DNA from: Squalus acanthias
Lineage: Eukaryota
Assembly (NCBI GenBank): GCA_030390025.1
Contig: CM059432.1
Coordinates: 64,234,001 to 64,298,000, forward strand
Direction of reading: 5' to 3'
DNA: 64,000 bases
Part shown: positions 1-62,814 of the stretch, piece after piece
How positions within the stretch are numbered: the first letter of the stretch is position 1
Layout of the letters: each line of letters opens with the position of its first letter
The notes under the pieces: generated by a model
What the model saw: the letters and a program-made list of their open reading frames with translations, nothing else
The model's database searches: none
Told to the model about the DNA's origin: nothing
Program-made: the position numbers and the translations under genes

Positions 1-471
1 CCCCAGCATCGAAACTTTGACCACGCTCGATCAGCTCCGATGGACGGGCCACATCGTCCGCATGCCCGATACGAGACTCCCAAAGCAAGCGCTCTACTTG
101 GAGCTCTGACATGGCAAGAGAGCCCCAGGTGGGCAGAGGAAACGCTTCAAGGACACCCTCAAAGCCTCCTTGAAAAAGTGCAACATCCCCACCGACACCT
201 GGGAATCCCTGGCCCAAGACCGCACAAAGTGGAGGAGAAGCATCTGGGAAGGCGCCGAACACCTCGAGTCTCTTCGCCGGGAGCAAGCAGAAGCCAAGCG
301 CAAGGAGCGCACGTCAACCCAAGCACTCCACCCACCCCTTCAACCACTGTCTGCCCCACCTGTGACAGAGACTGTAGGTCCCGCATTGGACTCATACGTC
401 ACCCGAGAACTCATTTTTAATGTGGAAGCAAGTCATCCTTGGTTACGAAGGACTGCCTAAGAAGAAGAAGA
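1..471 (+). mobile_element. RTE-clade LINE 3' end (window-truncated)
   Basis: Frameshifted ORFs give the RTE C-terminus (KRFKDTLKASLKKCNIPTDTWESLAQDRTKWR; CPTCDRDCRSRIGL..H..TH zinc finger) followed by a (GAA)n tail. Near-identical to 61194-61532. Confidence 0.85.
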
Positions 472-905
472 GTGACAACAGAGTCTGACACATTTTTGCA
501 CAGCTTGAAATCACACTCTGTGATATTAGTAACGAGCACGCTAACCCATTGCCACATTTCAGCATTTGGAAAAAGCGTTTCTTTTAATGGGTTTTTAAAT
601 GGAATGTGTATTCGCACAAATATGAAAAATAGAGCACCAAGATGACGGGTGGTTAATAAACTGAATGTATATCCAGAGACTTGACAATAAACAACTTGCT
701 AGCTTGTCTAGGTAATCACAAAGCACCTCTCACCTATTGTATTGTAAACCTCTTTGACCTCTTTGAGGCGAGGGTTAAAAAAAGAGACACAGATACAAAG
801 GCTGGCTTTTAGAATCAGGATGCGGAGATGCCGGTGTTGGACTGGGGTGGACAAAATTGAGAGGTCGCACAACACCAGGTTATAGTCCAACAGTTTTATT
901 TGAAA

Positions 906-947
906 TCACAAGCTTTCGGAGCTATCGATTGCTCCTTCCTCAGGTGA
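906..947 (-). ncRNA. Minimal type I hammerhead ribozyme motif
   Basis: Minus strand reads UCAC-CUGAGGA-A-GGAGC-loop-GCUCC-GAAA-GC-UU-GUGA. Confidence 0.8.
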
Positions 948-1387
948 AGTAAATTAGATACAGAATCGCCAAAGCATATATAGATAGAAAACAAAGCATG
1001 TGTACCTTACAATTGCAGACCACTAAATTAAATCATCCTGACTATCTGCCGAGGTGTGATAAAGTTAATTAAGTCAGCCAGGAAGGTACCACATCAAAGA
1101 CATAGCAAGATACAACTGAGACAATGAGGTGTAGTAAAAATTTTAAAGCTTTTCGTTTTACATACAGACGGCAGCTTTTGACATGTTAGAACCCCTGCGA
1201 CTACACCTCATTGTCTCAGTTGTATCTTGCTATGTCTTTGATGTGGTACCTTCCTGGCTGACTTAATTAACTTTATCACACCTCGGCAGATAGTCAGGAT
1301 GATTTAATTTAGTGGTCTGCAATTGTAAGGTACACATGCTTTGTTTTCTATCTATATATGCTTTGACGATTCTGTATCTAATTTACT

Positions 1388-1429
1388 TCACCTGAGGAAG
1401 GAGCAATCGATAGCTCCGAAAGCTTGTGA
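1388..1429 (+). ncRNA. Minimal type I hammerhead ribozyme motif
   Basis: tcac ctgagga a ggagc aatcgata gctcc gaaa gc tt gtga: stem I tcac/gtga, stem II ggagc/gctcc, palindromic AGCU stem III. Confidence 0.8.
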
Positions 1430-2128
1430 TTTCAAATAAAACTGTTGGACTATAACCTGGTTTTAGAATCAGGACATTCCACAGGCAGTCAGGCAGCAAA
1501 AGACTGAGAAAAACAGGAGGCTACAGGAATATTCTATCCTGGGCTGCTAGACAGAATGCAGAGGACTTAGTCTGTTTAAGACAAGCAAGATGACCCACTG
1601 AAGTGGGATAGTGTAGCATGTTCATTATTTTTATGTTATTATGCAAAGTTAAGTTGTATTGATTGAACTAAATAGTCTGATAATAATTATTGCTTACTTT
1701 GGAATAAAGTAACTTAATGATTCAAACCAAGCCTCACCTCATCTGACGTTAACTCAGTTTGCCAACAGAGAAATTACAGAAATACATACGCAAAAGATAT
1801 AGATATTCAGTTTGGATCACAAGGGGGTTCTACTGCTATATCCCTGGGTCCTGCTATCATACAAGTAGATATAGGGCAGTGTGAGTCAACACTCATTGGT
1901 AAAATGCATAGACCACTTACAGAATGATACCAATACCATTGAACACAAGAAGGTATCTACAACAGCACTTATTTTTGACACCTGTTCATAAAAGATTCTA
2001 TTGTGCGCTATTTTAACAAAGCCATTAACTGGTTTATTTTTAATGGATTAACGTATAAATAATGTACAGAAAGGTGTTCATTTTGCCTCTAGGTGAAGTG
2101 TTACCTGTAATAATATGGTGGAGTCATA

Positions 2129-3858
2129 GACCGCGATTTCACCTACCGAGGTGGGTCCGGTGCGGCCGGGATGTGACCCCACTGCTGGCTCCAGCCCGCT
2201 CTGTGAAAAGATTTTATGATTATTGGGCTTGTTAGGCACATTTCCCAGCCAATTGAAGGAAGCGGGTCTGATGACGTCATTTGATGACGCGTCATCAGCC
2301 GGTTTCCTTAAAGGGACCATGGCCAAATTGATTTTGACAGTTCTGCTGTCAGTGTTCTACAGCATTGAGGTGCTGCAAACACTGACAAGCACTGCACAGA
2401 GGTGCACAGGCTCTCCCATGACTCCCTCCCTTATGGAGGGAGCCACAGCACGCAGGGAGGTTCTCTTCCCTTCCAATGGGCAGAAGAGACCTCCCCAGGA
2501 GATCAACACAGCCTGGTTACACATTGCACAGGAGGGCAGAAGCAGGGATGTTGTCAGGAGGACCAGGCTGCAGTGGCACAAACCTTTCAATGATCTCAGT
2601 AGATCACAAAACGTTGCTGCAAAGCCACACTCAACCTCATCTTGCTGTGCCACCCATCACATCCCCATCACTCTGCCTTCCCTACCCTACTCCTGCACAT
2701 CCTTACTCACACCAACTTACCTTGCACCTCCACCCATCCCTCTCTATCGACATTATCACTTCCCCATCTCACTAGCCACCCCTCACACTCACTCTCATCC
2801 TTGTCCAATCATACCAACTAACAACACACAATGGTAGGCACTTGTGTGTTTTAGCCAATGTTCCTGTGAAGTTTCAGTTAATATGCTGTAAATATTGAAA
2901 TCTTTATTTTCAACACTTTGAGTTCTTGAACAGATTTGTGTGCACCTTTGGAAGTGGCTTAGTGAGTTGCAGTGAATGGTGAGACATAATGGTACCCCCT
3001 GCAATGGTGATGAGTGTGAAAGGAATAGATTGGGCATTGTAGGAATGCTTTATGGTGTTGGTGTGGGGTGGTGCCAACCTGGCGCATCATGTGGCAGCCA
3101 GGCTGTACAGCATCAAGTGAAGTAAATCTGGCCATGGTGAGGCCATCCCTGGTGTCCCGGGCAGCATCGGGTACTGATGGCCTGTGTAGCATCAGTTGAT
3201 TGCGGAGAAGGTTGGTGTTGTTGTTGGTGCTGCTGGTGTGCCTGGATCTGCTGGTGTTGGTTGGGGCTGATCGTGGTGGGATTCTGAGGACCAAGGTGAG
3301 AGAGTGTAAGCCATATTCATTCTGATGTAATAGATGGCAGATGAAGTTGAGATGACAGAAGCAAATCTGTCAATGGTCAGAGAGGTTGTTCCAATGAGGT
3401 GGCACTGGATAGAGAGTTGGCTCCAAACACTTGCAAGCTGCATAAAGCTCAATCTGTCTTCCAAATGTAGTAAGCAATAGTTTCTGAGCTTGAAAAGTGA
3501 ACAGCTGTGAGATGGGAGATTTTATACAACTTTTGCAGCTGTCAGATAATAAGATAATTCAATGCTGAATCCACTCATGCTGAGCTGATGTGATCCCCAA
3601 GCAGCGGGGAAGCCATGGGGGAACACGTAAAATTCAAAGGTAAGCTTAAAATACTATTTAAGTGCCTCTTAATCGCTCTACTGATCTAAATTGCCTACCC
3701 CACCAGCTTGGTGTCGGGTCTATTCAGCGATGACAAACCCGGCATCTGGGAGACTAGCATGGAGGCGGCTTGACAGCAGGTTCCACACCCGGTCAAAAAA
3801 AAATTTCCCACCTGACCCACCACCAAACGCACCCGCTGACCCCCGAAAAATTCCCCCC
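2129..3858. mobile_element. Internally deleted PIF/Harbinger DNA transposon
   Basis: ATA flanks both ends. Plus-strand Myb/SANT-like remnant (REVLFPSNGQKRPPQEINTAWLHIA...RRT...FNDL). Minus-strand transposase C-terminal remnant (RDGLTMARFT) like that at 14740. Confidence 0.7.
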
Positions 3859-4020
3859 ATAGTTGTTTGACAGTACTACTAAATGTGTTAGTATTTGCTT
3901 AACACATACAATAGCTTTTACCATATGCTGTGAGCCATTTTCATGAAATAAGTTAAGCGTACTGTTTGGCTTAATCTATGCAAGTTCTTGAGAAAACTGC
4001 ATCCATTTTATTTACTCATT

Positions 4021-5647
4021 GGCCCATAATTTGCAGTCAGCAGTGAAGCTAAGGCGCTTTGTTGTTTATTTTCTAGCCTTTCTTTCCTGTGTCTTCCGAA
4101 CTCACTTACAAATTTTCTGCCTCCCATTTCCAGCTTTGCTTCTCTCCCTTCTGAATCGAAGCTCAGGCTCCCATCCCACTGCCAAGCTAGTTTAAATCCC
4201 AACAGCACTAGCAAACCCCCCCATTAGGATATTTGTCCGGGCCCTGTTGAGGTGCAACCCGTCCAGCTTATACAGGTCCCACCTCCCCCAGAACCAGTCC
4301 CAATGCCTCAGGAATCTAAAGCCCTCCCTCCTGCACCATCTCTCTAAACAAGCATTCATCTGCTCTGTCCGCCTATTTCTGTACTCACTAGCACGTGCCA
4401 CCGGGAGTAATCTGGAGATGACTATCTTTGAGGTCCTGCTTATTAATCTCTTTCCTAGCTCCCTAAAATCTGCCTACAGGTCCTCATCCCTCTTTCTCCC
4501 TATGTCATTGGTATCTATATGGCCCACGACCTCTGGCTGGTCACCATCCCCCCTCAGAATGTCTAGCAGCTGCTCAGTGACATCCTTGAGCCTGGCACCA
4601 GGGACGCAACATACCATCCTGCAGTCGCAGAAACATCGGTCTTTTCCCCTTACTATTGAATCCCCTATCACTATTGCTTTTCTGACCTTCTTCCTCCCCC
4701 CGTACAACTGAGCCACCCATGGTGCCGTGGACTTGGCTCTGGCTGTACTTCACAGAGGAACCATTGCCCTCACCACCGGTTAGGGAGCGAGATTCACTCT
4801 GGACTCCTGCACTACCTGCCTGGTCCTCCTTGTCTGTCTGGCGGTCACCCATTCCCTCTCTGCCTGCAAACTCTTAAGCTGTGGGGTGACCAACTCCTGA
4901 AACATGTTATCCACATAGCTCTCAGACTCCCGGATGCACTGCAGTGACGCAAGCCGAAAACCAGAGCTCGAGCTCCTCCAGCTGACGATACTTCCTGCAC
5001 ATGTGCTTGTCCAGGACACGAGAAGCATTCTGGATCCCACATGGCACAGGATGTGCATTCGACGGGACTGAGCTGCCCTGCCATGCCTCTCCTAACTAAA
5101 CTTCTTAGTTTAACTCTCTGCCCTAACTTAGAGAGAAAAAAGTCTAAATTATTTACTCAAGTTTAACAGGAACCACTGAGATACAAAACACAAGAACCTA
5201 AATGTTAGATATCGAGATATTTAACCTGGAGTCCTCAGGTTCTGTGAATCCACTGCTCCTTTTGAGTTGGATGTGAGAAATCACCTTCCTGCTCTCCACC
5301 GAATTCCTACCATCACCAAATTCTTCCACTCTGCTTGCAATCCACTCCGATTGCGATTCACCCAGCTCTGTCTCTAAGCTCTGTGTTCAAACTCAGGGGG
5401 TAGTTAACAGTGATATTAGCGCGGGAAAGCTCAAGTTTTTTTCAGTTTCATTGATTTCACAGATTGCCGGCTATTGGGGGGATCCACAGCCCAGCCTGTA
5501 CCGGAGCAGTGAACGATTGACCGCAACTTCAGGATTTCCACATTTAGACACACATACGCTAAATCCTGAAGTTGCGGTCAGTTTCAGAGGGGGAATGATG
5601 ACAAACGCTGAGAGTTTGCCATCATTACCCACTGCAAAATCTGGGCC
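4021..5647. mobile_element. Harbinger-type MITE split by a CR1 fragment
   Basis: TIRs ggcccataatttgcagt / actgcaaaatctgggcc; 3-bp ATT on both sides. Confidence 0.6.
4060..5395 (-). mobile_element. CR1 LINE 5' part with degenerate ORF1 (zinc finger + SGNH esterase)
   Basis: MAGQLSPVECTSCAMW..., IVIGDSIVRG, HIDTND and DGLHLN motifs in shifting frames. Homologous to 52018-52968. Confidence 0.85.
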
Positions 5648-5859
5648 ATTTTAAATTACTCATGTTTTTCTATATTAATAATATTAATATTGAGGCCATT
5701 GATAACATTTTCTTCAAACACCTGCTTCAAATATTTGTTTGGTGACTAATGAACATCAAAACTTCATTATGGGTTGCAACATTCATGGGCCTAGATCTTC
5801 TGGTTAGCCATTAATCCAGCAGAAATGCAGCATGGTAGAACTTGAGTCTGCCACAAGAA

Positions 5860-7312
5860 GGATAGGAAATGTAACCCCGCTATTTAAGAAAGGAGGGAGA
5901 GAGGAAATGGGGAACTACAGACCTGTTAGCCTCACATCAGTAGTTGGGAAAATGCTGGAATCTATTATAAAGGATGCAATAACTGGGCACTTAGAAACTA
6001 ATAGTAAGATTGGGCAGAGTCAACATGGATTTATGAAAGGGAAATCCTGTTTGACAAACCTATTGGAGTTCTTTGAGGATGTAACTAGTGGAGTAGACAA
6101 AGGGGAACCGGTAGATGTGGTATATCTGGATTTTCAGAAGGCCTTCGATAAGGTCCCACACAAGAGGTTGGTGAACAAAATTAGGGCACATGGAATTGGG
6201 GGTAATATACAAGCACGGATTGAGAATTGGTTAACAGACAGAAAACAAAGAGTAGGGATAAACGGGTCTTTTTCAGGATGGCAGGCTGTGACTAGTGGGG
6301 TACCGCAAGGATCGGTGCTTGGGCCCCAGCTATTCACAATCTATATCAATGATTTGGATGAGGGAACTAAATGTAACATTTCCAAATTTGCTGATGATAC
6401 AAAGCTAGGTGGCAGCGTCAGTTGCGAAGAGGATGTGAAGAGACTTCAAGGGGATCTCGACAGGCTCAGTGAGTGGGCGAGAACATGGCAGATGGAATAT
6501 AATGTGGATAAATGTGAAGTTATCCACTTTGGTAGAAAAAACAGAAAGGCAGAGTATTTCCTAAATGGTGAAAGATTGGGGAATGTAGATGCTTAAAGGG
6601 ACCTGGATGTCCTTGTACATGAGTCACTGAAAGTGAATGTGCAGGTGCAGCAAACCATTAGGAAGGCAAATGGTATGCTGGCCTTCATTACAAGAGGATT
6701 TGAGTACAGGAGTAAAGAAGTCTTACTCCAATTATATAGGGCCTTGGTAAGACCACACCTGGAGTACTGTGTACAATTTTGGTCTCCTCACCTAAGGAAG
6801 GATATACTTGCCATAGAGGGAGTGCAACGAAGGTTCACGAGATTGATTCCTGGGATGGCGGGACTGTCGTATGAGAAGAGATTGAGTAAACTAGGCCTGT
6901 ATTCTCTTGAATTCAGAAGAATGAGAGGGGATCTCATTGAAGCATACAAAATTATAGGGCTTAATAGATGGATGCTGGGAGAATGTTTCCCTTAGCTGGG
7001 GAGTCTAGAACCAGGGGCCACAGCCTCAAGATAAAGGGTAGGCCATTCAGGACTGAGATGAGAAGAAATTTCTTCACACAGAGGGTGGTGAATCTTTGGA
7101 ATTCTCTACCCCAGAGGGCTGTGGAGGCTCAGTCACTGGGTATATTCAAAACAGAAGTCGATAGATTCTGACTAGTAAGGGCATCAAGGGATATGGCGAT
7201 AGGGCCGGTGAATGGAGTTGAGGCAGAAGATCAGCCATGATCTCATTGAATGGCGGAGCAGGCTCGAAGGGCCGAATGGCCTACTCCTACTCCTATTTCT
7301 TGTGTTATGTTC
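5860..7312 (+). mobile_element. 5'-truncated CR1 LINE (RT region to 3' tail)
   Basis: NYRPVSLTS, QHGF, YLDFQKAFDKVPH, GVPQGSVLGP, KFADD motifs; in-frame stop at 6594; CR1 3' UTR/tail. It appears to sit inside a MITE-like element (~5787-7821). Confidence 0.95.
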
Positions 7313-10960: not shown

Positions 10961-12593
10961 TATAAAAGATCCCTTACTGTACTGAACTTCAAGGTTTCAA
11001 ACCTTACCAACACAGCCAAACGTGCCACGGCTCTTAAAGTGCATCATTAATTGGAAAATTTAAAGCTGTGCGTTTCTTGTATAAAGCCTGAATAGAATTG
11101 CTGCTGACAAAGTTGACCAACATGAAGCCAAGTATTGCCATCAGAGGATTTCTGATTGCTGGGGCAGCAAAACAGTGACCCATAAATCAGGAACCAGGGA
11201 AAAGAGCAAAATTCAATGAAAACTTACTGAAGTGTAACTAGGATTTAAAGAAAGCAATTTGCAAAGTGTCATATATCTGTAACCCTGAAAAGAGTTTGGC
11301 AATTGCTGTGGAATTGTTCATTTCCACAAATTTGAAGCTGAACATTGGAAGAACTGGAGTATAAATATTAAAGGATGCAGAGTGATTAGTTAATATTGCA
11401 GCAAAAGAACAGGGCAGTGTAAAAATAACAGAACTGTGAAATACTTGCATCTTGAAACTAAACTGTGAGATTAGCGCATGAAGGTTTAACACATCTGTAT
11501 GCAATTCTTTGGTCCAGATTTTAACAGAGGCATTAATCTGTGGATTAACACCTCCATTGAAATAGTGAAATAAGGAATTGCATATGAATGAATTGGGCAT
11601 TTATTTGTTAATATTCTCACAGGGTCAAATCAAGAGAGTGCAGTTTCTCTTTTGATAAAATAAACGGGAAGATACCTATTTTTCTCCATTATTAATGACT
11701 CGCCAACACAATTGAATTCTCAGGAATTGCTCATTTCAAGTCAATTATCTAATAATTTTGACAAAAATGTTAATTACAGTAAAAAATAGACATCCTCCAT
11801 TTTTTTTGTGAAGACAAATTTTTGACCCCAAGACTACATGATAGAATCAATGACAAGATTTTTGCCTTTACCTCCTGGGTGCTAAACATGGCCTGGACAC
11901 AGCGCCAAATGGAAAATCTGGCGGGGAGCATTGCATGCCAGTAACAGAACCCATTTTGGAAGGAAAATTCAGTGGGTTCTGTAGGGGCATGTCTCCTTGC
12001 CAGATTTTCCTTTCTGCACTCTGCACAGATGATGCTTACTGCAATAAGTAAAGACGATAATCTACCTTAATCACTTTTAATTGAATGACTGGAAAACTAA
12101 AATTTAGCAACATAGCATTTTTTGATTTGCAGATATGACAGAACAATTGAGGCGCGTTTGGATGCCTGCGAGTAACCTACACGTCAAAGTCGGGGCTTAA
12201 ATTATTGCAGGTGGGTGGGTAGTTATTGTTGCAATTAACGTCCTTAGGAGACGTTAAAGAGGTGTTTTTAAATTGAATTTAACTTAGCTTTAAATTTAAC
12301 GGCCGGATTGTTCACCTTTGAGCCGGGTTGGGTGTGTGCGGGGTGTGTAGCGGGTCCGGAACGCAATGTTCTGAACAACGTGCTGCTCAGAGCGACTTTC
12401 ACTTAATGGCCCCAATTGAAAGACTCATCGCGTTTCCCGGCCCTATTAAATGGTGCGGGCCTGATGGCATCATCGATGACGCGTTTCCAGCACCCATATT
12501 TAAGGCAGCCTTGCACTGAACTCACTTGAAGGTTGCCAAAGGAGGGTGAAAGGTGTGCAAGAAAGGCCATGGGATAGATAAAAATTTTGAAAC

Positions 12594-14453
12594 ATGGATA
12601 GCGAAAGGCAGAGAGCTGCACCCCAGTTCTCAGATTCTTCCTTGCATAATCTTGTGGAGACTGTCAGAGCAGGCAGGGAGGTCCTATTCCCTGCTGACAG
12701 GCAAAGGAGATCTCCACAGGAAACAAAAAGAGCCAAGCTAGATATTGCTGAGGAGGTCAGCAGCAGGGATGTGGTCAGGAGGACCTGGATCAAGTGCAGG
12801 AAGCGCTTCAATGATCTGATGAGGTCAAGAAAGGTGAGTGCAATGCCACACTCACCCTCATCCTGAAGTGCCTGTTGCCACACCCCCCTCACTCTGCCTT
12901 CCCAAGCCTACTCCTGCACAGCATTACTCACACCAACATACCTTGCACGTCCACAGATCCCTCTCTCTCTATGTACATACACACATCCCCATCTGACTAA
13001 TCACCTTTGACACTCACCCTCATCCTAATGCAATTATAGCAAGTAACACCACAGAAGGAGGACATTTGGCATTGGCACCCCACTCTCACATAGTCACCCT
13101 TTACAGATGTACATCCATTCCTTACACTCATTCCATCACTCTCACTCAAACTTCTCTTCTTTCGCTCCTTGCAGGAGGAGAAGAGAACTCAACAATAGGG
13201 AGCGGGAGAGAACCGGAGGTGATCCTCCAGTAATTGCACATCTCACAGCAGCAGAGGACGCGGCTCTGGAAATTTCGGGAGCTCGAGAGATGCTGGCGGT
13301 GGGAGATGTTGGGAGAGGCACATTCCAGCAACCTGGTGACAGAATCACATCTCATAAAGCCACATGGCATAAAACAGTCACTCATGTCAGCAGCCAGTGA
13401 AATGTCATCATGTGCATATGGTAACGTTACCCATTCTTATTATAATACTTCTAATTCATCTCTTTATTCTCCTACAGTTCCATCAACTGCCCCCTCCCCT
13501 CCCCATTATCTAGCTGGAAGAGGAAGATGACTCCTCAGAGGAGCCTCCAGCCTCTGAGGGTGCACTGTCACCAGACGTATGCGCACCCAGCACCAGCGCA
13601 GATACACACCTCGGTGGGTCCTTTGCACCATAGAGTAGAGTTGTCACCTGGTGTCTCACAATTCACAAGTGAGCAAGAGCAGATGGTGTTGACGGGGACA
13701 GCAGTGGAGACTCCTCGTTGGAGGGCGCAGGATGCTCACAGCTCTGCTGAGCTGCATGCAGAGGCTGAGCCTCAGGGGCCATCCAGAAAGAGGGTGATCC
13801 TGGAGGGGCAGCAACAATTGCATGAGGCTCTGGCATCTTTTGCAGCCGCAATATCTGCAAATGTTCAGAGAATTGAGGAGTCCACCTCCAACATGAGCAG
13901 CACCATGTCGCAGGCGATGGTGACAATGTGCTGTTCCATGGAAAGGATGGCCACCTGCATGGAGCAGCAAATCCGGCACTCACATGAGCACATGCTAGCT
14001 GTGGACAACAGATGGCAGGCGCTCATAGACCTCTTCTCAAGAAGGGATGTAAACGTTGACTTGGGCCTTCATCGCCCCGCTGCTGTGCAGCAAGGTGCTC
14101 GCCAGCTCCTTGTTAGCAGGGAAGTGCGGGTATCCCATGAGAGGGATGATGGTGAGAGGGGACATGGATGAGGGGGCTCTTCTCAAAGCGCTTCCACTTC
14201 TCCCCCGTTGCCTCCTCCTCAGTCAGAGCTCCAGCTGCTCCCTCGGATTCCGAGGGCCGAGTCTGCCCCTGCACAGTTGCAGGAGAAGCAGACTTTGGCG
14301 GGGCCATCAGAGGCTCCAAAACCCAGAGGACATCTGCCAAAAGTGTCTATGCAGTCGCAGCAGCGAAGTGAGCAGCCTGCAACTACCTCTGCTGAAGCCA
14401 CAGAGGTTGCACCTCGGAGAAGCACTCGCAAAAGAAAAATGACACAAAAGTAG
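12594..14453 (+). pseudogene. Harbinger Myb/SANT-like DNA-binding gene, 3 exons (12594-12833, ~13175-13335, ~13478-14453), frameshifted
   Basis: MDSERQRAAPQFSD...RRTWIKCRKRFNDL followed by AAG|GTGAGT; polypyrimidine-CAG acceptors at 13174 and 13477; RERTGGDPP motif; basic end PRRSTRKRK. Confidence 0.75.
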
Positions 14454-15832: not shown

Positions 15833-16710
15833 GACTCCTCCTCGTCTTCCACCTGCTCGTCCTCGTCCTCCTCTGAAGAGGCTGTGTGCTGTGCACCATG
15901 CTCCTCCTGCAGCTCCAATCCTCGCTGCTATGCTATGTTCTGAAGCATGCAGCAGACGACGATGATGATTCTGGAGACCCTGGCTGGTGCGTACTGAAGG
16001 GCTCTTCCAGATCTGTCAAGGCATCTGAAGCGCATCTTCAGCATGCCAATTGCTGGTTCTATGACACATCTGGTGGAGATGCGACTGTCATTATAATGCT
16101 CCTCGGCCTCAGTACTTGGCCTCCTCAAGGGTGTCATGAGCCACGTCTTCAGTGGATAGCCCTCATCTCCAAGCAGCCAGACGGTATGTCTGTTTGGAGG
16201 TGTGAAGAGCTGAAGGAGGGTGGAATGGCGCAACATGAAAGAGTCGTGACAGCTGCCAGGCAATCTGGCGCACACATGCATAATCATCTTTTTATGGTTG
16301 CAGACGAGCTGCACATTGAGGGAGTGGAAGTCTTTGCGGTTCACAAACACTCCTGGGTGATGATGGGGTGCCTTCATGACCACATGTGTGCAGTCGATGA
16401 TGCCCTGCACCTGTGGGAAGCCAGCCAGAGCCTTCATCAGTGGAAAAGTTTACATAATTGGCTGACTTGTGAAACATGGCATCGATCACCTGGGTGATGC
16501 ATCTGTGGGCAGCCGACTGCAAGATCCCACAAATGTCTGCTGCAGATCCCTGGAAGGAGCCTAAGGTGAAGAAATTGAGGGTGGTGGTGACTTTGACAGT
16601 GGCTTGGAAACGGATTTCAAAAATGGTAATCAGGTCCTGCTGTTAAATTCGGCAGAATCACAAAACTGCCCCCCTCCACTCCCTCCTGCCTCCCTGTAAA
16701 TATCTGGCCC

Positions 16711-19700
16711 TTGTTTTGTTACAGCTTTTTCTTAACTTTGGAGGCTTTCAAACTGACAAGATCAGGATGAGAGGCACGTTCGATGTGTTTGACAGCACAT
16801 CAGAAGAGGAAGACCATCACCATCCATGGCAGCGACGATGTGCTATGGTGGGATCAGCATGTGCACAGGAGGGAGGTGCACAGGAGGGAGGGGTCGAGAT
16901 CACAGGAGACACTTCCCATATCACAGGCGAAAGACAGAAGCTCAGCTTCCTTGACCTCTTGGAAGAACAGTGCTTCTGTAGGCTGAGGTTCTCACGTCAG
17001 GTGTGGCAGACATCTGCAGCCTCCAAGAAGAAGACCAGATCCCTGCTGGACCTGGCGGACATGCATTACACCAGTGAGTGTGAAGTTCATTACCACCCTC
17101 AATTTTTTTTGCTTCTGGTTCCTTCCAGGGTGCTGCCCTAGACATCTTGAGGGTCTCGCAGTCAGCTGCACATAAATGCATAAGGAAGGTGATGGATGGA
17201 TTGTTTGCCAGGGCTAGGAGTTACATAAACTTCCCATGTGATGAAAATAGTCTGAATAAGCAGGCACTTGGATCCACCTCTCTGGCTGGATTCCCACAGG
17301 TACAGGGTGCCATCGACTGCACACACGTGGCAATCTGAGCACCACCACAGCAACCAGGAGTTTTTATAAACCACAAGGGATATTCGTCCATCAATGCGCA
17401 GCTGGTGTGCAACCACAAGAGGTGGTACATGTAGGTGTGCACCAGATTCCCTAGGAGCCGTTATGATGCATTCATACTGCGGCAGTCCAACATTCCTTTC
17501 ATTCCAGGAAGCAGACTTAAGGTCTGGCCCGGCATATGCCTCACTCTACCATTACCACCAAGCCAGGCGATCAACCCTGGTTCAATGAGTATAGAAGAGC
17601 ATGCCAGGGGAAGCACCAGGCGTACCTAAAAATGAGGTGCCAACCTGGGGAAGCTGCAACACAGGACTACACGCATGCTAAAAAGCGGAAGCAGCATGCT
17701 ATATACAGGGCAAAGCGATCCACAATCAACGGATCAGATCAAAGCTCTGCAGTCCTGCCACATCCAGTCGTGAATGGTGGTGGACCATTAAACAAATAAC
17801 GGGAGGAGGAGGCTCCATGAAAATCCCCATACTCAAAGATGGTGGAGCCCAGCATATGAGTGCAAAAGACAAGGCTGAAGCATTTGCAACCATCTTCAGC
17901 CAGAAGTGCTGAGTGCATGATCCATATCGGCCTCCTCCTGAGGTCCCCACCATCACAGAAGCCCGTCTTCAGCCAATTCAATTCACTCCACGTGATATCA
18001 AGAAATGGCTGAGCGCAATGGATACAGCAAAGGCTGTGGGCCCAGACAACATCTCAGCTATCGTGCTGAAGACTTGTGCTCCAGAACTAGCCGTGCCTCT
18101 AGCCAAGCTGTTCCAGTACAGCTACAACACTGGGATCTATCCGACAATGTGGAAAACTGCCCAGGTATGCCCTGTCCACAAAAAGCAGGACAAATCCAAC
18201 CCGGCCAATTACTGCCCCATTAGTCTACTCTCAATCATCAGCACAGTGATGGAAGTTGTCATCGACAGTCCTATCAAGCGGCACTTACTCACCTGCTCAC
18301 TGATGCCCAGTTTGGGTTCCGCCAAGACCATTCAGCTCCCGACCTCATTACAGCCTTGGTCCAAACATGGACAAAGGAGCTGAATTCCAGAGGTGAGGTG
18401 AGAGTGACTGCCCTTGACATCAAGGTAGCATTTGACCGAGTGTGGCATCAAGGAGCCCTAGTAAAATTGAAGTCAATGGGAATCAGGGGGAAAATGCTCC
18501 ACTGGCTGGAGTCATACCTAGCACAAAGGAAGATGGTTGTGGTGATTGAAGGTCAATCATCACAGCCCCAGGACATCGCTCAGGGCAGTGTCCTAGGCTC
18601 AACCATCTTCAGCTGCTTCATCAATGATCTTCCCTCCAACATAAGGTCAGAAATGGGGATGTTCGCTGATGACTGCACAGTGTTCAGCAACATTCACAAC
18701 TCCTCAGACAACAAAGCAGTCCATGCCCGCATGCAACAAGATCTGGACAACGTTCAGGCTTGGGCTGATAAGTGGCAGGTAACATTCGCACCACAGAAGT
18801 GCCAGGCAATGACTATCTCCAACAAGCGAGAGTCTAACCACCTCCCCATGACATTCAACGACATTACCATTGCCGAAGCCCCCACCATCAACATCCTGGG
18901 GGTCACCATTGAACAGAAACCTAACTGGACCAGCCACATAAATACTGTGGCAGCAGGAGCAGGTCAGAGGCTAGGTATTCTGCGGCGAGTGTCTCACCTC
19001 CTGACTCCCCAAAGCCTTTCCACCATCTACAAGGCCCAAGTAAGGAGTGTGATGGAATACTCTCCACTTGCCTGGATGAGTGCAGCTGCAACAACACTCA
19101 AGAAGCTCGACACCATCCAGGACAAAGCAACCCGTTTGATTGGCACCCCATCCACCACCGGCGTACTGTGGCTGCAGTGTGTACCATCTACAAGATGCAC
19201 TGCAGCAACTCACCAAGTCTTTTTCGGCAGCACCTCCCAAACCCGCGACCTCTTCCACCTAGAAGGACAAGGGTAGCAGGTGCATGGGAATACTACCACC
19301 TCCAAGTTCCCCTCCAAGTCACACACCATCCTGACTTAGAAGTATATCGCCGATCCTTCATCGTCACTGGGTCAAAATCCTGGAATTCCCTCCCTAACAG
19401 CACTGTGGGAGTACCTTCACCACACGGACTGCAGCGGTTCAAGGCAGCAGCTCACCACCACCTTCCCAACGGCAATTAGGGATGGGCAATAAATGCTGGC
19501 CTTGCCAGCGACGCCCAGATCCCATAAGCGAATTTAAAAAATGACAATGGATACCCCCTTCAAACATGGCTCATGATACCTGTGAGGAACCCCACCAATG
19601 AGGCTCAAGAGCGCTGCACTGAGAGCCACATGACTACCAGCTGTGTCATAGAGCAAGCCATCGGAATGTTGAAGATGCATGTCAGGTACTCAGATAGGTC

Positions 19701-20952
19701 TGGACGCATCCTTCAGTACTCGCCAGCAAGGGTGTCCAGAATGATAGTGGTGAGCTGCGTCCTGCACAATATTGCGCAGCAGAGAGGATTGCAGGTGGAG
19801 AAGGACAAAGGGCCTCATCACTCATCTTTGGATGAGGAGAAAATAGAGGAGGAGGAGGAGGAGGAGGAGGAGGAAGATGAGGCACCCATCACTAGACAAG
19901 CCGCTTACATTGCTGCAAGGGATGTCCAAATATCACGACGGTTCACCTAGTGTAAACATAAGAAATGAAATCCTGCGGTCCGTTCTCACCACCAGGACCA
20001 CCCCTCCCCCCTTGCAATAAACAGTCCTTCAGCCACTCATCAACCCATTGCACATCTGCCTAATGGGACCCGTCATGTATTGACATTCATCATGAAACAA
20101 GCGAAAGGGTAAGTTGGCACTCGGGAAGCAATAATGGAAAGACGTGGAAGTGGTGGTTAACAATAAATTTTATGTGGCATTAAATAGAAAGGAAACTTAT
20201 AAAGAAAGGAAACTTAACAATGTAACATTTTGTAAAACACTCATGTGCATACCCTTGGTGACTTACAATTTCTTGAGCTTACGCTTCCTACCGCTTCTAC
20301 GTGGTGCATCCCATGTGGCTTCAGCAGAGGTAGAAGGGAGGTGATGAAGTGCTTAGAAAGTGAAGGCTGGGTGCTGCTGAAAGTTAAGTGGGTGTGAGGA
20401 GTGATGTGATGGAGTACGCTTGGCAAGACAGAGTGAAAGTGTCAGGGGATCAAACCATAGGATGTAGTTGAACCAGCAAATGTATTCACTTTTCCTGACC
20501 TGGGTTAGGTCATTAAACCGCTTCCTACAGTGCTTCTAAGACTTAGTCATAATGCTCCTGCTGCTCACCTCCTCAGCTACCTACAAACATGCCTGCTTGG
20601 TGAGAGCCGCATGTTTCTTCCTCACATTGCTGGGGAAAAATATGTCGCTCCTGCTCCTGACTGCTCCCAGCAGTGATGTGTCATTGAATCTGGGTGCTGC
20701 CCTTGCTCTATGTGCACTATCCATCATGAGCACCTCTAATTTCCATCTGCGAATTGTCCCTTTAAATACAGGTGGGAAGACGTCATGCGGGTACGTATCA
20801 CGCCCGCTGTGCAGCTTGGAGACGTGAAAACAGGAAGTCAAAATGAATTGCTTCAATTCACTTGCGATCGCAGATTCCGACCCACTGAGTTGAATTCCAT
20901 CATCTCCCCCCAACCTCCACTCGGAAGCAGCCTTCAGATTAATATCTGGGCC
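16711..20952. mobile_element. PIF/Harbinger transposon relic C (transposase +, Myb -)
   Basis: Transposase 16768-17525 plus 19542-19950 (AIDCTHV, DNGYP, IEQAIGMLK, acidic tail, RRFT*). Myb remnant ~20727-20490 and ~20340-20241 on the minus strand. Right end aatatctgggcc. Confidence 0.85.
17527..19541 (+). mobile_element. LINE family B (CR1/L2 group), 5'-truncated ORF2
   Basis: RT motifs PANYCPISLLS, ALDIKVAFDRVWH, QGSVLG, MFADD; tail gggatgggcaataaatgctggccttgccagcgacgccc...aaaaa. Interrupts the transposase just before its DxGYP motif. Confidence 0.9.
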
Positions 20953-22175: not shown

Positions 22176-22304
22176 ACAATAGCAAAATACTGCGGATGCT
22201 GGAAATCCGAAATAACAGAAAACGCTGGAAAAACTCAGTAGGCCAGGCAGCATCCGTGGAGAGAGAAACAGAGTTAACGTTTCAGGTCGAAGACCTTTCG
22301 TCAG
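22176..22304 (-). mobile_element. Short Penelope-type (family B) repeat with hammerhead core
   Basis: 9-bp TSD atatacctt (22167-22175, 22305-22313). Minus strand reads CUGACGA-A-AGGUC-UUC-GACCU-GAAA-CG-UU-AACU. Confidence 0.75.
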
Positions 22305-23059: not shown

Positions 23060-26000
23060 GGGCTGGATTTTACTCACCGAGACGCGTTGCGGGCGGGACT
23101 GCGCCTTCCGAGTTCTAGTCTCGCCCCCAGAGACGTCTGACGAACAAACTCTATTTTGCACTGATTGGCCTGCCGGACAATTAAGGGAAAGCCAGTGTTA
23201 GATGTGGTCAGTTGATGATGGAGACATGGCTCCAGGGTGACCAAGGCTGGGAATTCAACATCCAGGGGTATACAATATTCAGGAAGGACAGACAAAAAGG
23301 AAAAGGAGGTGGGGTAGCATTGTTGTTTAAAGAGGAGATTAACACAATAGTAAAGAAGGATATTAGCTCTGATGATGTGGAATCTGTATGGGTAGAGCTG
23401 AGAAATACCAAGGGGCAGAAAACGTTAGTGGGAGTTGTATACAGACCTCCAAACAGTAATGCTGAGGTTGGGGATGGCATTAAATGGGAAATTAGAGATG
23501 CGTGCAATAAGGGCACAGCAGTTATCATGGGTGACTTTAATCAACATATAGATTGGGCTAACCAGATTAGTAACAATACTGTGGAGGAGGACTTCCTAGA
23601 TTGTATATGGGATGGTTTCCTGGACCAATATGTCGAGGAACCAACTAGAGATGAGGCCATCTTAGACTGGGTATTATGTAATGAGAAAGGATTAATTAGC
23701 AATCTTGTTGTGCGAGGCCCCTTGGGGAGGAGCGATCATAATATGATCGAATTCTTCATTAAGATGGAGAGTGAAGTAGTTGACTCAGAGACTAGGGTCC
23801 TGAATTTAAATAAAGGAAACTACGATGGTATGAGGCACGACTTGGCTAGGATGGATTGGGGAGTGTTACTTAAAGGGTTGACGGTGGATAGGCAATGGCA
23901 AACATTTAAAGATCGCATGGATGAACTACAGAATTTGTTCATCTCTGTTTGGCATAAAAATAAAACAAAAGAGGCGACTCAACCGTGGCTAACAAGGGAA
24001 ATTAGGGATAGCATAAGATCCAAGGAGAGGACATATAAATTGGCCAGAAAAAGCAGCAAACTTGAGGATTGGGAGCAGTTTAGGATTCAGCAAAGGAGGA
24101 CAAAGGGATTAATTAAGAGGGGGAAAATAGAATATGAGAGTAAGCTTGCAGGGAACATAAAAACTGACTGTAAAAGCTTCTATAGATATGTGAAGAGAAA
24201 AAGATTGGTGAAGTCAAGCGTAGGTCCCTTGCAGTCAGAAGTGGGGGAATTTATAATGGGGAACAAAGAAATGGCAGACCAATTAAATACATACTTTGGT
24301 TCTGTCTTCACAAAGGAGGACACAAATAAACTCTCAGAGATGTCAGGGAACATAGGGTCTAATGAGAGGAAGGAATTGAATGAAATCAGTATTTGTAGGG
24401 AAATGGTGTTAGGGAAATTGACGGGATTGAAGGCCGATAAATCCCCAGGGCCGGATAATCTACATCCTAGGGTACTTACGGAAGTGGCCCTAGAAATAGT
24501 AGATGCATTGCTGGTCATCTTTCAAAATTCTATAGACTCTGGAACAGTTCCCATGGATTGGAGGGTAGCTAATGTAACCCCACTATTTAAAAAAGGTGGT
24601 AGAGAAAAAACAGGGAATTATAGACCGGTAAGCCTGACATCGGTAGTGGGCAAAATGCTAGAGTCCATTATAAAAGATGTAATAGCAGAGCACTTGGAAA
24701 ACAGTGACAGGATCGGACAAAGTCAACATGGATTTACAAAAGGTAAATCATGCCTGACTAATCTACTGGAATTTTTTGAGGATGTAACTGGCAGAATAGA
24801 TAAGGGAGAACCAGTGGATGTGGTGTATTTGGACTTTCAGAAGGCTTTCGATAAGGTCCCGCATAAGAGATTAGCGTGCAAAGTTAAAGCACATGGGACT
24901 GGGGGTAAGGTACTGATTTGGATAGAGAACTGGTTGGCAGACAGGAAGCAAAGAGTTGGAATAAACGGGTCTTTTTCCGAGTGGCAGGCAGTGACTAGTG
25001 TGGTTCTGCAGGGATCGGTCCTAGGACCCCAGCTATTCACAATATATATTAATGATCTAGACGAGGGAACTAGATGTAATATCTCCAAGTTTGCAGACGA
25101 CACAAAGCTGGGTGGGTGTGTGTGCTGTGAGGAGGATGCAGAGAAACTCCAATATGATTTAGACAGGTTGGGTGATTGGGCAGATGCATGATAATGTGGA
25201 TAAATGCGAGGTTATCCACTTTGGTGGCAAAAACAGGAAGACAGATTATCTGAACGGCAATAGATTGGGAAAAGGGGAAGTGCAACGAGATCTGGGAGTC
25301 CTTGTGCACCAGTCGCTGAAGGTAAGCATGCAGGTGCAGTAGGCGGTTAAGAAGGCAAATGGTATGTTGGCCTTCATAGCGAGAGGATTCGAGTACAGGA
25401 GCAAGGATGTCTTGCTGCAGTTGTACAAGGCCTTGGTGAGACCACACCTTGAGTATTGTGTGCAGTTTTGGTCGCCTTATCTGAGGAAGGATGTTCTTGC
25501 CATGGAGGGAGTGCAGCGAAGATTTACCAGACTGATACCTGGGATGTCAGGAATGACGTATGAAGAGAGATTGGGTCGATTATGCTTATATTCGCCAGAG
25601 TTGAGAAGAATAAGAGGGGATCTCATTGAAACTTATAAAATTCTAACAGGACTAGACTAGATGCAGGAAGAATGTTCCCGATGGCGGGGGAGTCCAGAAC
25701 CAGAGGTCACAATCTAAGGATAAGGGGTAAGCCATTTAGGACTGAGATGAGGAGGAATTTCTTCACCCAGAGAGTGGTGAACCTGTGGAATTCTCTACCA
25801 CAGAAGACAGTTGAGGCCAATTCATTAAATATATTCAAGAAGGAGATAGATATATTTCTTAAGGCTAAAGGGATCGAGGGATATGGGGAGAAAGCAGGGA
25901 CAGGGTACTGAATTTGGATGATCAGCCATGATCTCATTAAATGGCAGAGCAGGCTCAATGGGCCGAATGGCCTACTCCTGCTCCTATCTTCTATGCTTCT

Positions 26001-31277: not shown

Positions 31278-31450
31278 TGAAAACTCTCAGCAGGTCAGTC
31301 AACATCTGTGGAGAGAAGTTAACATTTCAAACCCTTCTTCAAAACCTAAAATGTTAACTTGTCTGTTCTCTCCTGCTAAATGACCTGCTGAGAATTTCCA
31401 GCCTTTTTAAAATTTTATCACAGATTTCCAGCATCTACTGTATTTTGACT
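31278..31450. mobile_element. Degenerate palindromic family-B Penelope-type repeat
   Basis: ctcagcaggtca...gttaacattt faces aaatgttaact...tgacctgctgag. Confidence 0.6.
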
Positions 31451-32125
31451 TGGTTCACTGCTTTTGTCACCTTCACATTAAAACCAAATCAATGGCCCTG
31501 TTTTTTGGAGAGCTGGACAGCTTCAATGCCCTGAAGCCCAATTATTTTACATTCTAAATGCACTTCTCCAGCAGAGAACTATTTTGCTCTTTCTATATAT
31601 TTTTAGATTTAAAAGTGGGTTCTGTTATATCCTTTATGACTGCCAGTGCTATGGAATCTGCTCCACTGACATTGCAGAGCAAACATCATGGCACCAATGG
31701 CAACTGAAAAAGATGTACACAAGGGCAATGTTACAAAACATGGTTATTTCTGGACCTTCTCCAACAGCTAGGCAAGGACCACATGGCTAGCGCTGTGTAA
31801 ACCACATTGCTGCCCTATATGCAGGGTCACAAGCATTTTTGTGTAGAATATGCAAAAATTATCCCACCCCATAAAAATTGCACCATCCAGTAAAAATTGT
31901 CCTGCTCCATTCTCCTCCCTACTCCTGCCCTGTGCTGTCATGGGACATCAAAGTCTGCTCCATGATCTGGGTAGGAATTCCTAATCTTGCAATAATTTTC
32001 CAAAAAGTAACATTTTCTATCCACAGTGTGCAGCAAAGTTCAATCCCCTGGAACAGCACAGGTCGGAGCCGAAGCAGTGGTGAAAGGGTGAATCAAGGAA
32101 AGCTGACTTTATGAACAATGAGGAG

Positions 32126-56984: not shown

Positions 56985-57533
56985 GTTCTCCAAGGCAACC
57001 TTAGAAACACACGACAACGCAAAATCATCGAGCAGAAACTGATAGCCAAGTTCTGCACTCATGAAGACGGTCTCAATCGGGATCTTGGGTTTATGTCACG
57101 ATACATGACGTGATCCGGACTCGAGTCGTCGTTAGCTTGTTCACAGATGTGATTCCCAGTAAAAAAGTAAAAATTTTCCCAGTAAAAAAGTAAATTTTTT
57201 TTTAAAGCTTTTCGTTTTACATACAGACGGCAGCTTTTGACACGTTAGAACCCCTGCGACTTCACCTCATTGTCTCAGTTGTATCTTGCTATGTCTTTTG
57301 ATGTGGTACCTTCCTGGCTGACTTAATTAACTTTATCACACCTCGGCAGATAGTCAGGATGATTTAATTTATTGGTCTGCAATTGTAAAGTACACATGCT
57401 TTTTTTTCCATCTATATATGCTCTGACGATTCTGTATCCAATTTACTTCACCTGAGGAAGGAGCGATAGTTCCGAAAGCTTGTGATTTCAAATAAAACTG
57501 TTGGACTATAACCTGGTGTTGTGCGACCTCTCA
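56985..57533 (+). mobile_element. 5'-truncated Penelope-like element (GIY-YIG C-terminus + pLTR)
   Basis: 9-bp TSD ataaaatac (56976-56984, 57534-57542); VLQGNLRNTRQRKIIEQKLIAKFCTHEDGLN resembles the R..E..I......GLN end of Penelope GIY-YIG endonucleases. Confidence 0.85.
57448..57485 (+). ncRNA. Minimal hammerhead ribozyme motif
   Basis: tcac ctgagga a ggagc gata gttcc gaaa gc tt gtga (G-U pair in stem II). Confidence 0.8.
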
Positions 57534-61956: not shown

Positions 61957-62260
61957 GGACAAAAATGAGAAGTCGCACAACACCAGGTTATAGTCCAACA
62001 GTTTTATTTAAAATTACGAGCTTTCGGAACTGCTGCCCCTTCGTCAGGTAAAGGTACAGTGAGGGAATCTATTACACAGTATATATACACAGAGAGCAAT
62101 TTGTCTGCAGAGATACAATCTGTTAGGAAGGCATTACATCAAAGACACATCAGATCAGCCATGATCTTATTGAATGGCGGAGCAGGCTCGAGGGGCCGAT
62201 TGGCCTACTCCTGCTCCTATTTCTTATGTTCTTAGTACAGCTAAGACAATGAGGTGGGTC
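61957..62260 (-). mobile_element. Diverged Penelope pLTR copy, containing a CR1 tail at ~62152-62234
   Basis: Homologous to 849-1130 (gtcgcacaacaccaggttatagtccaacag). Confidence 0.75.
62014..62051 (-). ncRNA. Minimal hammerhead ribozyme motif (variant)
   Basis: Minus strand reads UUAC-CUGACGA-A-GGGGC-AGCA-GUUCC-GAAA-GC-UC-GUAA. Confidence 0.8.
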
Positions 62261-62814
62261 ACAGGGGGTCCAACGTGTCAAATGCTGCCATCTGCAGTTG
62301 AGCTTTTAACTTTTTTTTTTATAAAGGTGAATGACGTGCTATGAACAGTGCTGCGAGAGGTAACCATTTCAGGAAATCCTAATTTATGTGACGGAACCTT
62401 CACAATTTGCTGCCACTGGTGGGATGTAATTTTAGGGGATTTTACAGAACCGTTCCCTCTTGTAATGGTCTTGCTACATTTCCCGTAAGTGCACCTTATG
62501 CCCCCTACAAACAAGGGAACATAAGGTACACTTCTGGGAAATGCAGAAACCTCATACCCTCAGGACTAACACAATCGAAGAATGCTAGTGCCGCTTGCAC
62601 TTTATTTCTCTCCAGCCTACACCAGAAAGCAGCACTAATTAACAACATACCACATTTGAGCTGGACTCAGATTTTGAATTAACTAACCAGATTTATTAAC
62701 TGAAATGAAACAAGTAGAGTGCATACAGAACAACACAAGATTATGTACAATGATAGCAGTAAAATGACCAGATCTTTTAAAATTACAGTCTGCACAATGT
62801 GGGTCAGTGCCAGA

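What the first reader, a model, noticed from the sequence alone, without database searches (positions are those of the whole stretch)
821..1460. Young Penelope insertion forming a ~260-bp hairpin with a hammerhead ribozyme in each arm
Seen: 261-bp arms (875-1135 / 1200-1460) with about one mismatch by eye, a 14-bp TSD, and an intact CUGAGGA...GAAA-GC-UU motif in each arm on opposite strands. Known: Penelope-like elements carry minimal type I hammerheads in their pLTRs and often insert with inverted pLTRs. Their palindromic stem III is proposed to support dimeric cleavage. Inference: transcription in either direction gives long dsRNA containing one ribozyme plus its antisense, a possible self-silencing or siRNA/ADAR substrate.
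Basis: partly seen in the sequence, partly recalled or inferred. Interest (0 to 1): 0.72.

Follow-up and report, generated by a model that had tools for sequence, protein, structure and literature searches.

The report
Young head-to-head Penelope retrotransposon insertion
This 640-base hairpin is a recent, shortened copy of a common Penelope-like jumping gene, likely in a shark genome, inserted as two mirror-image halves in a layout already described for this class; it was likely made by copying the element's RNA from both cut ends of the target DNA, and nothing shows that it is transcribed or silences anything.

Summary
Observation confirmed: 261-nt arms with 1 mismatch, an exact 14-bp TSD and a minimal type I hammerhead per arm. 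A public-run contig holds the empty site with one TSD copy, so the insertion is real and young. A sister copy in the window carries the end of a Neptune-type Penelope ORF, 88% identical to a shark protein. The inverted 5'-truncated copy, one-sided tail, opposite-strand hammerhead pairs and siRNA from inverted Penelope copies are all published.

The arms are staggered. The 64-nt loop belongs to the right arm; the left arm runs 54 nt further 3'. Simple fold-back cannot give this. Priming from both target nicks can (about 60%), and the two pieces are 325 and 315 nt long. Both arms cross the ribozyme cut site, so the template was uncut or re-ligated.

In a read-through hairpin the ribozymes are predicted to be masked (72 kcal/mol). 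The TATA motifs point outward. The inversion junction was not confirmed in contigs.

This scan reached two-ended priming before on other shark DNA, including this genome. This is an ordinary member of a known kind, with one testable mechanistic detail.

The parts
807..820 (.). Target-site duplication, left copy (14 bp)
   Evidence: single copy in the empty-site contig
821..874 (-). Tail: 54-nt 3' extension on the left arm only. It ends 89 nt after the predicted ribozyme cut, at the family's commonest listed end (about 819-821), just before an ATG that many copies carry next
   Evidence: loose ends at 819 in 88, 70 and 10 contigs of X1, X5, X10 (table 7, truncated)
875..1135 (-). Left arm: inverted copy of the 3' UTR/pLTR, shorter at its 5' end; whole antisense piece 821-1135 is 312-315 nt
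910..947 (-). Minimal type I hammerhead of the left arm (stem I 5' strand from 947, core from 943, predicted cut 910|909)
977..982 (-). TATA-like motif 39 nt before the ribozyme core, pointing outward to the left (promoter predicted only)
1133..1135 (.). Inversion junction with 3-nt microhomology (AGT fits both the antisense arm and the sense element)
   Evidence: sense contigs begin to align at 1133; junction itself not seen in contigs
1136..1199 (+). 64-nt loop: element 3' UTR in sense orientation, continuous with the right arm
   Evidence: blastn of 1141-1460 to 57200-57516 at 95.6%; alignment
1200..1460 (+). Right arm: sense 3' UTR/pLTR without tail, ending 35 nt after the predicted cut, inside the loop of the tail helix; whole sense piece 1136-1460 is 325-328 nt
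1353..1358 (+). TATA-like motif 39 nt before the core, kept at -39/-40 in all three family copies; pointing outward to the right (promoter predicted only)
1388..1429 (+). Minimal type I hammerhead of the right arm; predicted cut 1425|1426; stem III palindrome AGCU 1421-1424; loop II carries a 4-nt insertion relative to copy 2 and holds a 6-nt palindrome
1461..1474 (.). Target-site duplication, right copy
56985..57533 (+). Sister copy (copy 2), not inverted, 9-bp TSD; carries the last 42 codons of the PLE ORF, the 3' UTR and a hammerhead; used as reference
61957..62294 (-). Older sister copy (copy 3) with hammerhead and TATA motif

Best explanation
The 640-bp insert is a young, non-coding, 5'-truncated copy of an endonuclease-positive Penelope-like retrotransposon, likely of the Neptune clade, set head to head inside a 14-bp target duplication, and it was likely made when both nicked target strands each primed a cDNA on the 3' end of uncut element RNA. 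Shown: the anatomy, the empty site, the family link, the staggered arms, the 3-nt junction microhomology, and that both arms cross the ribozyme cut site. Inferred: (1) the GIY-YIG endonuclease nicked both strands 14 nt apart; (2) one 3' end primed at cut+35 (right junction) and ran 325-328 nt; (3) the other primed at cut+89 (left junction, the tail end) and gave the 312-315-nt left piece; (4) the two cDNA ends were joined at AGT. The hairpin is a by-product. The ribozymes are passengers of the pLTR, predicted to be masked in any read-through transcript, and the copy has no ORF.
For: Both halves have their element 3' ends at the TSDs. The loop is sense and continuous with the tail-less arm, while the tail is on the other arm, so neither arm is a subset of the other, as fold-back of one cDNA would need. 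The left end is the family's commonest listed terminus (table 7). Both arms share 8 substitutions and 2 indels against copy 2, so they come from one source. Two of the three other inverted PLE insertions in the window are staggered the same way; the third is undetermined. The anole PLE protein cuts and extends both target strands, starts at two adjacent RNA sites that define the tail, is predicted to be a dimer, and uses unprocessed RNA (PMC11167929). In rotifer Pen2a the inverted pLTR is 37 bp shorter and a 31-bp tail is optional on one inverted pLTR (PMC3846280). Family link: 41 aa at 88% to P0003, which has RT, DKG, a CX4CxxC linker and GIY-YIG with CCHH residues.
Against: No listed contig bridges the inversion junction (longest listed piece 40 nt, 489 pieces not shown), so the loop's orientation, on which the staggering rests, is from the assembly alone. 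The left-junction contig in X5 reaches only 22 nt into the insert, under the tool's 31-nt bar. The right end (cut+35) is not among the loose ends shown (704 rows hidden). The two other staggered copies are old and lack a convincing TSD. Their arm lengths are not equal (about 83/67 and 71/106 nt, read). The published explanation is self-priming on an antisense template (PMC3846280). No genome was held, so no genome-wide count was possible.
Confidence: 0.62

Rival explanations
1. Self-priming fold-back. An antisense template, or the first cDNA, snaps back at AGT over a 64-nt loop and is copied. The tail comes from copying an antisense RNA to its end, or from a short second priming of the tail alone. 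A variant is a nested fold-back whose loop was later flipped or mis-oriented in assembly.
For: It is the published proposal for head-to-head PLE structures (PMC3846280, passages). It explains near-identical arms. The 15 listed joints that I read as inversions have offsets of 0-58 nt, as small loops would. Insertion B1 (50170-50423) turns at a short natural palindrome with a 7-nt loop.
Against: Pure cDNA fold-back cannot add element tail beyond its own priming site. Only 3 nt of pairing would close a 64-nt loop. No antisense transcript is shown for this family. The left junction sits at a preferred terminus and has the polarity of a target-primed cDNA.
Confidence: 0.22
2. The hairpin was not made here: a master locus that was already inverted was transcribed and retrotransposed in one pass from 1460, truncating at 821.
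For: Partial-tandem copies flanked by inverted repeats are described as a frequent active form in Drosophila (PMC2377424, passages). The arms share all variants but one.
Against: Random 5' truncation would not be expected to land on the family's commonest terminus. A 260-bp hairpin template is a poor substrate. A multi-copy junction should be easier to see in contigs, and none was listed in 4 runs (a weak negative).
Confidence: 0.07
3. One reading: the locus acts as a self-silencing dsRNA, siRNA or ADAR substrate, with ribozyme cleavage taking part.
For: About 90% of bases pair on either strand. Inverted Penelope copies gave siRNAs matching the inverted regions in transformed Drosophila (PMC3681739). 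A TATA readable both ways is proposed in rotifer pLTRs (PMC3846280). The one arm difference is A>G in the sense strand, the change editing would leave.
Against: The insertion is polymorphic, so it is too young to show selection. The TATA motifs face outward. Ribozyme stems have pairing probability 0 in the hairpin and cost 72 kcal/mol to form. Minimal hammerheads showed no monomer and low dimer cleavage in vitro (PMC4209133). One transition cannot be told from an RT error or later mutation. The same review says those siRNAs did not silence Penelope efficiently.
Confidence: 0.05
4. The inverted repeat is an assembly artefact.
For: Neither the inversion junction nor the right junction was seen in a listed contig. 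PLE inverted structures trouble assemblers (PMC8557442).
Against: The exact 14-bp duplication of a site that is single in the empty allele, the private mismatch between the arms, microhomology at the junction, a partial left-junction contig in a second sample, and three more inverted PLE copies in the window.
Confidence: 0.04

Closest known systems
Canonical EN+ Penelope-like element insertion unit (PMC8557442 Fig. 2 legend; Pen2a_Av of Adineta vaga, PMC3846280; Drosophila virilis Penelope, PMC2377424)
   Same: 5'-truncated copy with an adjacent inverted 5'-truncated copy, head to head, a tail on one end only, variable TSD, hammerhead in the pLTR.
   Different: So short that no ORF is left. 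The tail offset is 54 nt rather than 30-40. The TSD is 14 bp against 8-10 bp in the rotifer examples.
Minimal type I hammerheads of metazoan PLEs (Cervera and de la Pena 2014, PMC4209133)
   Same: Core, extra base between 9 and 10.1, G10.1-C11.1, palindromic 15.2-16.2, 4-bp stem I. The paper already reports dual min-HHRs about 100-700 bp apart on opposite strands; these two are about 450 nt apart.
   Different: Stem II is 5 bp (7-8 bp in the Schistosoma families). Loop II carries a 4-nt insertion relative to copy 2 and is self-complementary. Cleavage untested.
Poseidon PAc of Anolis carolinensis (Frangieh et al. 2024, PMC11167929)
   Same: Internal RT start sites downstream of the ribozyme near a stem-loop define the tail; both strands are nicked and extended; cleavage is not needed.
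   Different: This family is Neptune-type by its linker motif. Its ribozyme lies about 90 nt before the ATG, not across it. The main text read does not explain inverted insertions.
Twin priming of L1
   Same: Two target-primed cDNAs, head-to-head join, microhomology at the junction.
   Different: In L1 the two cDNAs copy different parts of the RNA. Here they overlap by 261 nt, which needs strand displacement or two RNA molecules.
Non-LTR retrozymes (bioRxiv 10.64898/2026.07.22.740005; PMC7229834, search listing only)
   Same: Non-coding, PLE-derived, type I hammerheads.
   Different: Retrozymes are direct tandem units with ribozymes on one strand; this is an inverted pair and cannot release a monomer.

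Membership tests
EN+ Penelope-like element (family level) | Single ORF with RT and C-terminal GIY-YIG endonuclease with CCHH residues | tested here: met
   Absent from the insert itself. Copy 2 (95.6% identical over 321 nt) ends in 41 aa 88% identical to the C-terminus of P0003, which has RVT_1 (E 5e-9) and, by eye, DKG, GIY-YIG and CCHH residues.
EN+ Penelope-like element (family level) | pLTR holding a hammerhead | tested here: met
EN+ Penelope-like element (family level) | 5' truncation, adjacent inverted copy, one-sided tail, variable TSD | tested here: met
   TSDs of 14, 9, 12 and 9 bp at four insertions in the window
Neptune clade | CX2-5CxxC motif in the RT-EN linker (shared with Nematis, absent in Penelope/Poseidon) | tested here: met
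   CX4CxxC in P0003, P0005, P0006; definition from PMC8557442; seen in the homologue, not in the window
Neptune clade | RT phylogeny separating it from Nematis | not tested
   No reference set at hand. The preprint lists Neptune and Poseidon in vertebrate classes and no Nematis among the groups it detected.
Minimal type I hammerhead | CUGANGA, GAAA, NUH, stems I and II, extra base after 9, G10.1-C11.1, palindromic stem III | tested here: met
   24 of 24 cells paired in 3 distinct copies, one compensatory pair in stem I; 161 of 500 shuffles reach this, so it is not significant alone
Minimal type I hammerhead | Match to a curated hammerhead model | tested here: not met
   No Rfam hammerhead hit; the published minimal motifs were found with a relaxed descriptor, not such a model
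Minimal type I hammerhead | Self-cleavage as monomer or dimer | not testable with these tools
   Nearest-neighbour energies only: double hammerhead -23.5, two monomers -26.0, inactive duplex through stem and loop II -36.9 kcal/mol
Non-LTR retrozyme | At least two consecutive direct units with a ribozyme on the same strand | tested here: not met
   One ribozyme per strand; criterion from the preprint
MITE or fold-back DNA transposon | Terminal inverted repeats at both ends with fixed ends across copies | tested here: not met
   The left arm starts 54 nt inside the insert; sister copies are not inverted and end at other places

The most novel reading that the evidence does not exclude
Two active sites of a dimeric Penelope enzyme copy ONE uncut RNA at the same time, one behind the other. 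A leader primed at the upstream start site and a follower primed from the other target strand at the tail end, displacing the leader's cDNA, stop together and are joined. The follower cannot overtake, so the tail-bearing arm would always be the one shorter at its 5' end, the loop would match the tail offset (64-70 against 54 nt here) and the two cDNAs would be of like length (325-328 against 312-315). This would explain the inverted pLTR and the one-sided tail of Penelope-like elements with one rule.
Probability: 0.3. Interest if true: 0.6.

Novelty: new member of a known kind. Interest (0 to 1): 0.27.

Why it matters
As an object it is ordinary: one of many inverted stubs of an abundant retrotransposon. 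Its value is as a clean, recent specimen with a known empty site. How Penelope-like elements make inverted ends and one-sided tails is stated to be undefined (PMC8557442). The staggered arms here point to priming from both target strands, which can be tested on any shark assembly and in the existing in vitro system. It also shows that cDNA synthesis ran across the predicted ribozyme cut site in both arms, which bears on the open question of what PLE hammerheads are for.

Tried and rejected
Whole genome: none held, so no genome-wide census. Rfam: no hammerhead at E up to 5 in 1-6000, nothing at gathering score in the window. Metagenome scan with an 18-nt tail motif: 4 loci, all matching only 18-22 nt, taken as chance. 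Sequencing runs: no RNA holder listed. The guessed-RNA run X10 has no cover on the unique left flank 560-805, and guessed-RNA run X12 has no listed piece across the junction; neither is evidence on expression. Junction test on 1098-1172 in 4 runs: no listed bridging piece; inconclusive, because contigs drop rare paths between high-depth repeats and only 32 of 521 pieces are shown. Host gene: Pfam scan of 142 of 269 stop-to-stop frames of 70 aa or more (all 90 that start before 22,000 and 52 of the other 179) gave transposon-type domains and two sub-threshold hits (Cut8, Spc7), no host exon; short exons would be missed, so an intronic position is not excluded. A first translation of copy 2 was in the wrong frame. 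The constrained fold had stem I off by one (81.8 kcal/mol) and was redone (72.1). The pair count had the 3' strands off by one and was redone. A-to-I editing as the source of the single mismatch was considered and left open. Retrozyme and MITE readings were rejected (see membership). Initiator matches at -7 and -12 are absent in copy 3 and are weak. Sub-threshold Pfam hits on P0003 and P0006 (E 0.076, 0.046) were taken as noise.

Full report
OBSERVATION. The insert spans 821-1460. The arms 875-1135 and 1200-1460 are 261 nt and differ at one place, 969 C against 1366 A. The 14-mer TTTTAGAATCAGGA flanks it exactly at 807-820 and 1461-1474; its chance at a given place is about 7e-9. Each arm holds a minimal type I hammerhead: stem I UCAC/GUGA, core CUGAGGA, an extra A, a 5-bp stem II, GAAA, GC, UU, with the predicted cut at 1425|1426 and its mirror at 910|909. 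Rfam has no matching model. Across 3 distinct copies in the window all 24 stem cells pair, with one compensatory change; 161 of 500 shuffles do as well, so this is consistent but not significant.

IT IS REAL AND YOUNG. Laying contigs of 4 public runs on 560-1760, record 1 of run X1 (566 nt, depth 8.19) joins 560-806 directly to 1461-1638. That is the empty site with one copy of the 14-mer, bridged by 247 and 178 nt. The duplication was therefore made by the insertion, and the locus is polymorphic or heterozygous. X1 may be the window's own sample. A contig of a second sample (X5 record 16) runs from the left flank 22 nt into the insert, below the tool's 31-nt bar for bridging. A targeted test on 1098-1172 listed no piece across the inversion junction in 4 runs (longest 40 nt, 32 of 521 pieces shown), and no right-junction contig was listed. 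The inner structure thus rests on the assembly. An artefact is unlikely given the TSD, the private mismatch and the junction microhomology.

WHAT IT IS. A sister copy lies at 56985-57533 with a 9-bp TSD. It begins with 42 codons whose best named relatives are shark proteins (Heptranchias perlo, Mustelus asterias; 11 of 11 candidates pass), 88% identical over 41 aa to the end of P0003. P0003 has an RT and, by eye, DKG, a CX4CxxC linker and a GIY-YIG domain with CCHH residues. By the definitions in PMC8557442 (passages) this is the Neptune/Nematis type; no tree was built. The host is therefore likely a cartilaginous fish. The insert is the 3' UTR and pLTR of this element with no ORF. A Pfam scan of 142 of 269 long open frames found transposon domains and no host exon.

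Against copy 2, the 64-nt loop is sense sequence continuous with the right arm, while the left arm alone carries a 54-nt tail. The sense piece is 325-328 nt and the antisense piece 312-315 nt; AGT at 1133-1135 fits both (sense contigs start to align at 1133). Both arms share 8 substitutions and 2 indels against copy 2, so they have one source; the left arm has one more change. Both 3' ends face the TSDs, at 35 and 89 nt after the predicted cut. The left end is the commonest terminus among the loose ends shown: 88, 70 and 10 contigs at 819 in X1, X5 and X10, with others at 848, 855 and 858 (704 rows hidden; the loose consensus suggests some continue into an ATG). Copies 2 and 3 end near 858 and 849. 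The right end lies inside the loop of a predicted tail helix and the left end just past it; I looked at this after reading e1-8597828. One search lists 15 of 129 joints; I read them as inversions in other copies, with offsets of 0-58 nt. Their short sides are only 20-28 nt, so this is weak. Of three inverted insertions of a second PLE family in the window, two are staggered with the same polarity and one is undetermined; the two have no convincing TSD.

MECHANISM. A single cDNA that folds back makes a second arm nested in the first and cannot add tail beyond its own priming site. The staggered form needs antisense template for the tail, most simply a second cDNA primed from the other target strand. 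The anole PLE protein nicks and extends both strands, starts at two adjacent internal RNA sites that define the tail, is predicted to be a dimer and uses uncut RNA (PMC11167929, parts 1-2 of 4). I put two-ended priming at about 0.6. The published alternative is self-priming on an antisense template (PMC3846280, passages), which could also leave this polarity (0.2). The bolder version is two active sites running in tandem on one RNA. It predicts the polarity, a loop near the tail offset and like cDNA lengths, all seen here, but this is one locus and the two old copies do not have equal arms (0.3). Both arms cross the cut site and reach 185-250 nt upstream of the predicted start, so both were copied from the 3' region of uncut or re-ligated RNA.

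THE dsRNA IDEA. A read-through transcript of either strand folds at about -500 kcal/mol with about 90% of bases paired. The antisense arm comes first on both strands, stem II has pairing probability 0, and forcing the ribozyme stems costs 72 kcal/mol. A sense arm alone keeps stem II (0.92-0.95) but hardly stem I (0.01-0.06). The two ribozymes are on opposite strands and cannot dimerise in one RNA. For two isolated copies an inactive duplex through stem and loop II (-36.9) beats the double hammerhead (-23.5) in a model without tertiary contacts. A TATA motif sits 39-40 nt before the core in all three family copies (lead from e1-8639351). If it is a promoter it fires outward from each arm and gives no hairpin; D. 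virilis Penelope has a TATA-less promoter (PMC2377424, passages), so this is prediction only. Nothing here shows transcription of the locus. The idea itself is not new: siRNAs matched inverted Penelope regions in transformed Drosophila and did not silence the element efficiently (PMC3681739, passages).

WHAT IS KNOWN. Inverted 5'-truncated copies and one-sided 30-40-bp tails are standard for PLEs (PMC8557442, passages). Dual minimal hammerheads about 100-700 bp apart on opposite strands, no monomer cleavage and low dimer cleavage are in PMC4209133 (parts 1-2 of 4). PMC6765202 (passages) reviews dimer cleavage; Lunse et al. (PMC5785218) was seen only as a reference there. The retrozyme preprint was read in part 1 of 5 and passages. 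L1 twin priming is recalled, not read. Searches for a printed twin-priming account of PLE inversions found none: 'Penelope' with 'twin priming' gave 3 papers on other subjects by title and abstract start, not opened; 'Penelope, pLTR, template switch' gave 1 review; 'Penelope-like, Neptune, shark' gave 0. The library lacks most subscription papers. I saw no supplements; Figs S1-S2 of PMC11167929 and the supplements of PMC4209133 and the preprint may bear on this.

EARLIER FINDINGS. I noted twin priming before the first look-up returned anything. Later look-ups showed that this scan reached the same idea many times on shark DNA: 12 findings hold all the words, 8 shown, including this genome, and one lies 8.5 kb before the window. 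These are unchecked repeats, not independent support. A look-up for the equal-length, one-RNA version found 0.

VERDICT. A real, young, dead-end Penelope-like insertion of a known layout. The ribozymes are real motifs but passengers, and the silencing role is unsupported. Interest 0.27, carried by a testable rule for how inverted PLE ends form.

Noticed in passing
window 56094-57110 (+): Copy 2 landed inside a LINE reverse transcriptase so that a 339-aa open frame runs from the LINE RT (RVT_1) straight into the last 42 codons of the Penelope endonuclease; likely a chance in-frame fusion.
   Followed up: partly
window 50170-50423: Inverted insertion of a second hammerhead-bearing Penelope family with a 12-bp TSD, a 7-nt loop just before the ribozyme and a tail on the left arm.
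   Followed up: partly
window 34986-35135 and 31275-31451: Two older inverted insertions of the second family, both staggered like the focal one; no convincing TSD.
   Followed up: partly
window 22176-22304 (-): Solo stub of the second family with a 9-bp TSD whose 5' end falls within a few bases of the ribozyme core, inside another repeat.
   Followed up: partly
window 1405-1412: A 4-nt insertion relative to copy 2 leaves loop II self-complementary and is predicted to favour an inactive intermolecular duplex over the double hammerhead.
   Followed up: partly
window 27646-27805: 70-nt inverted arms at 74% with a 20-nt gap, not matching either Penelope family; perhaps an old miniature DNA element.
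   Followed up: no
window 5518-5580: Perfect 20-nt inverted repeat with a 23-nt loop; only chance-level miRNA hits.
   Followed up: no
window 12591-12863, 15931-16449, 19528-19947: Myb/SANT-like and DDE_Tnp_4 fragments, the pair typical of PIF/Harbinger transposons (label recalled).
   Followed up: no
window 23185-25188 (+): 668-aa open frame with endonuclease and RT domains, a fairly intact LINE ORF2 piece.
   Followed up: no
window 769: C>T variant 52 nt left of the insert, seen in the empty-site contig of X1 and in the left-junction contig of X5; phase with the insertion is not settled by contigs.
   Followed up: partly
window 49627-49766: Two short GC-rich hairpins side by side, not examined.
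   Followed up: no
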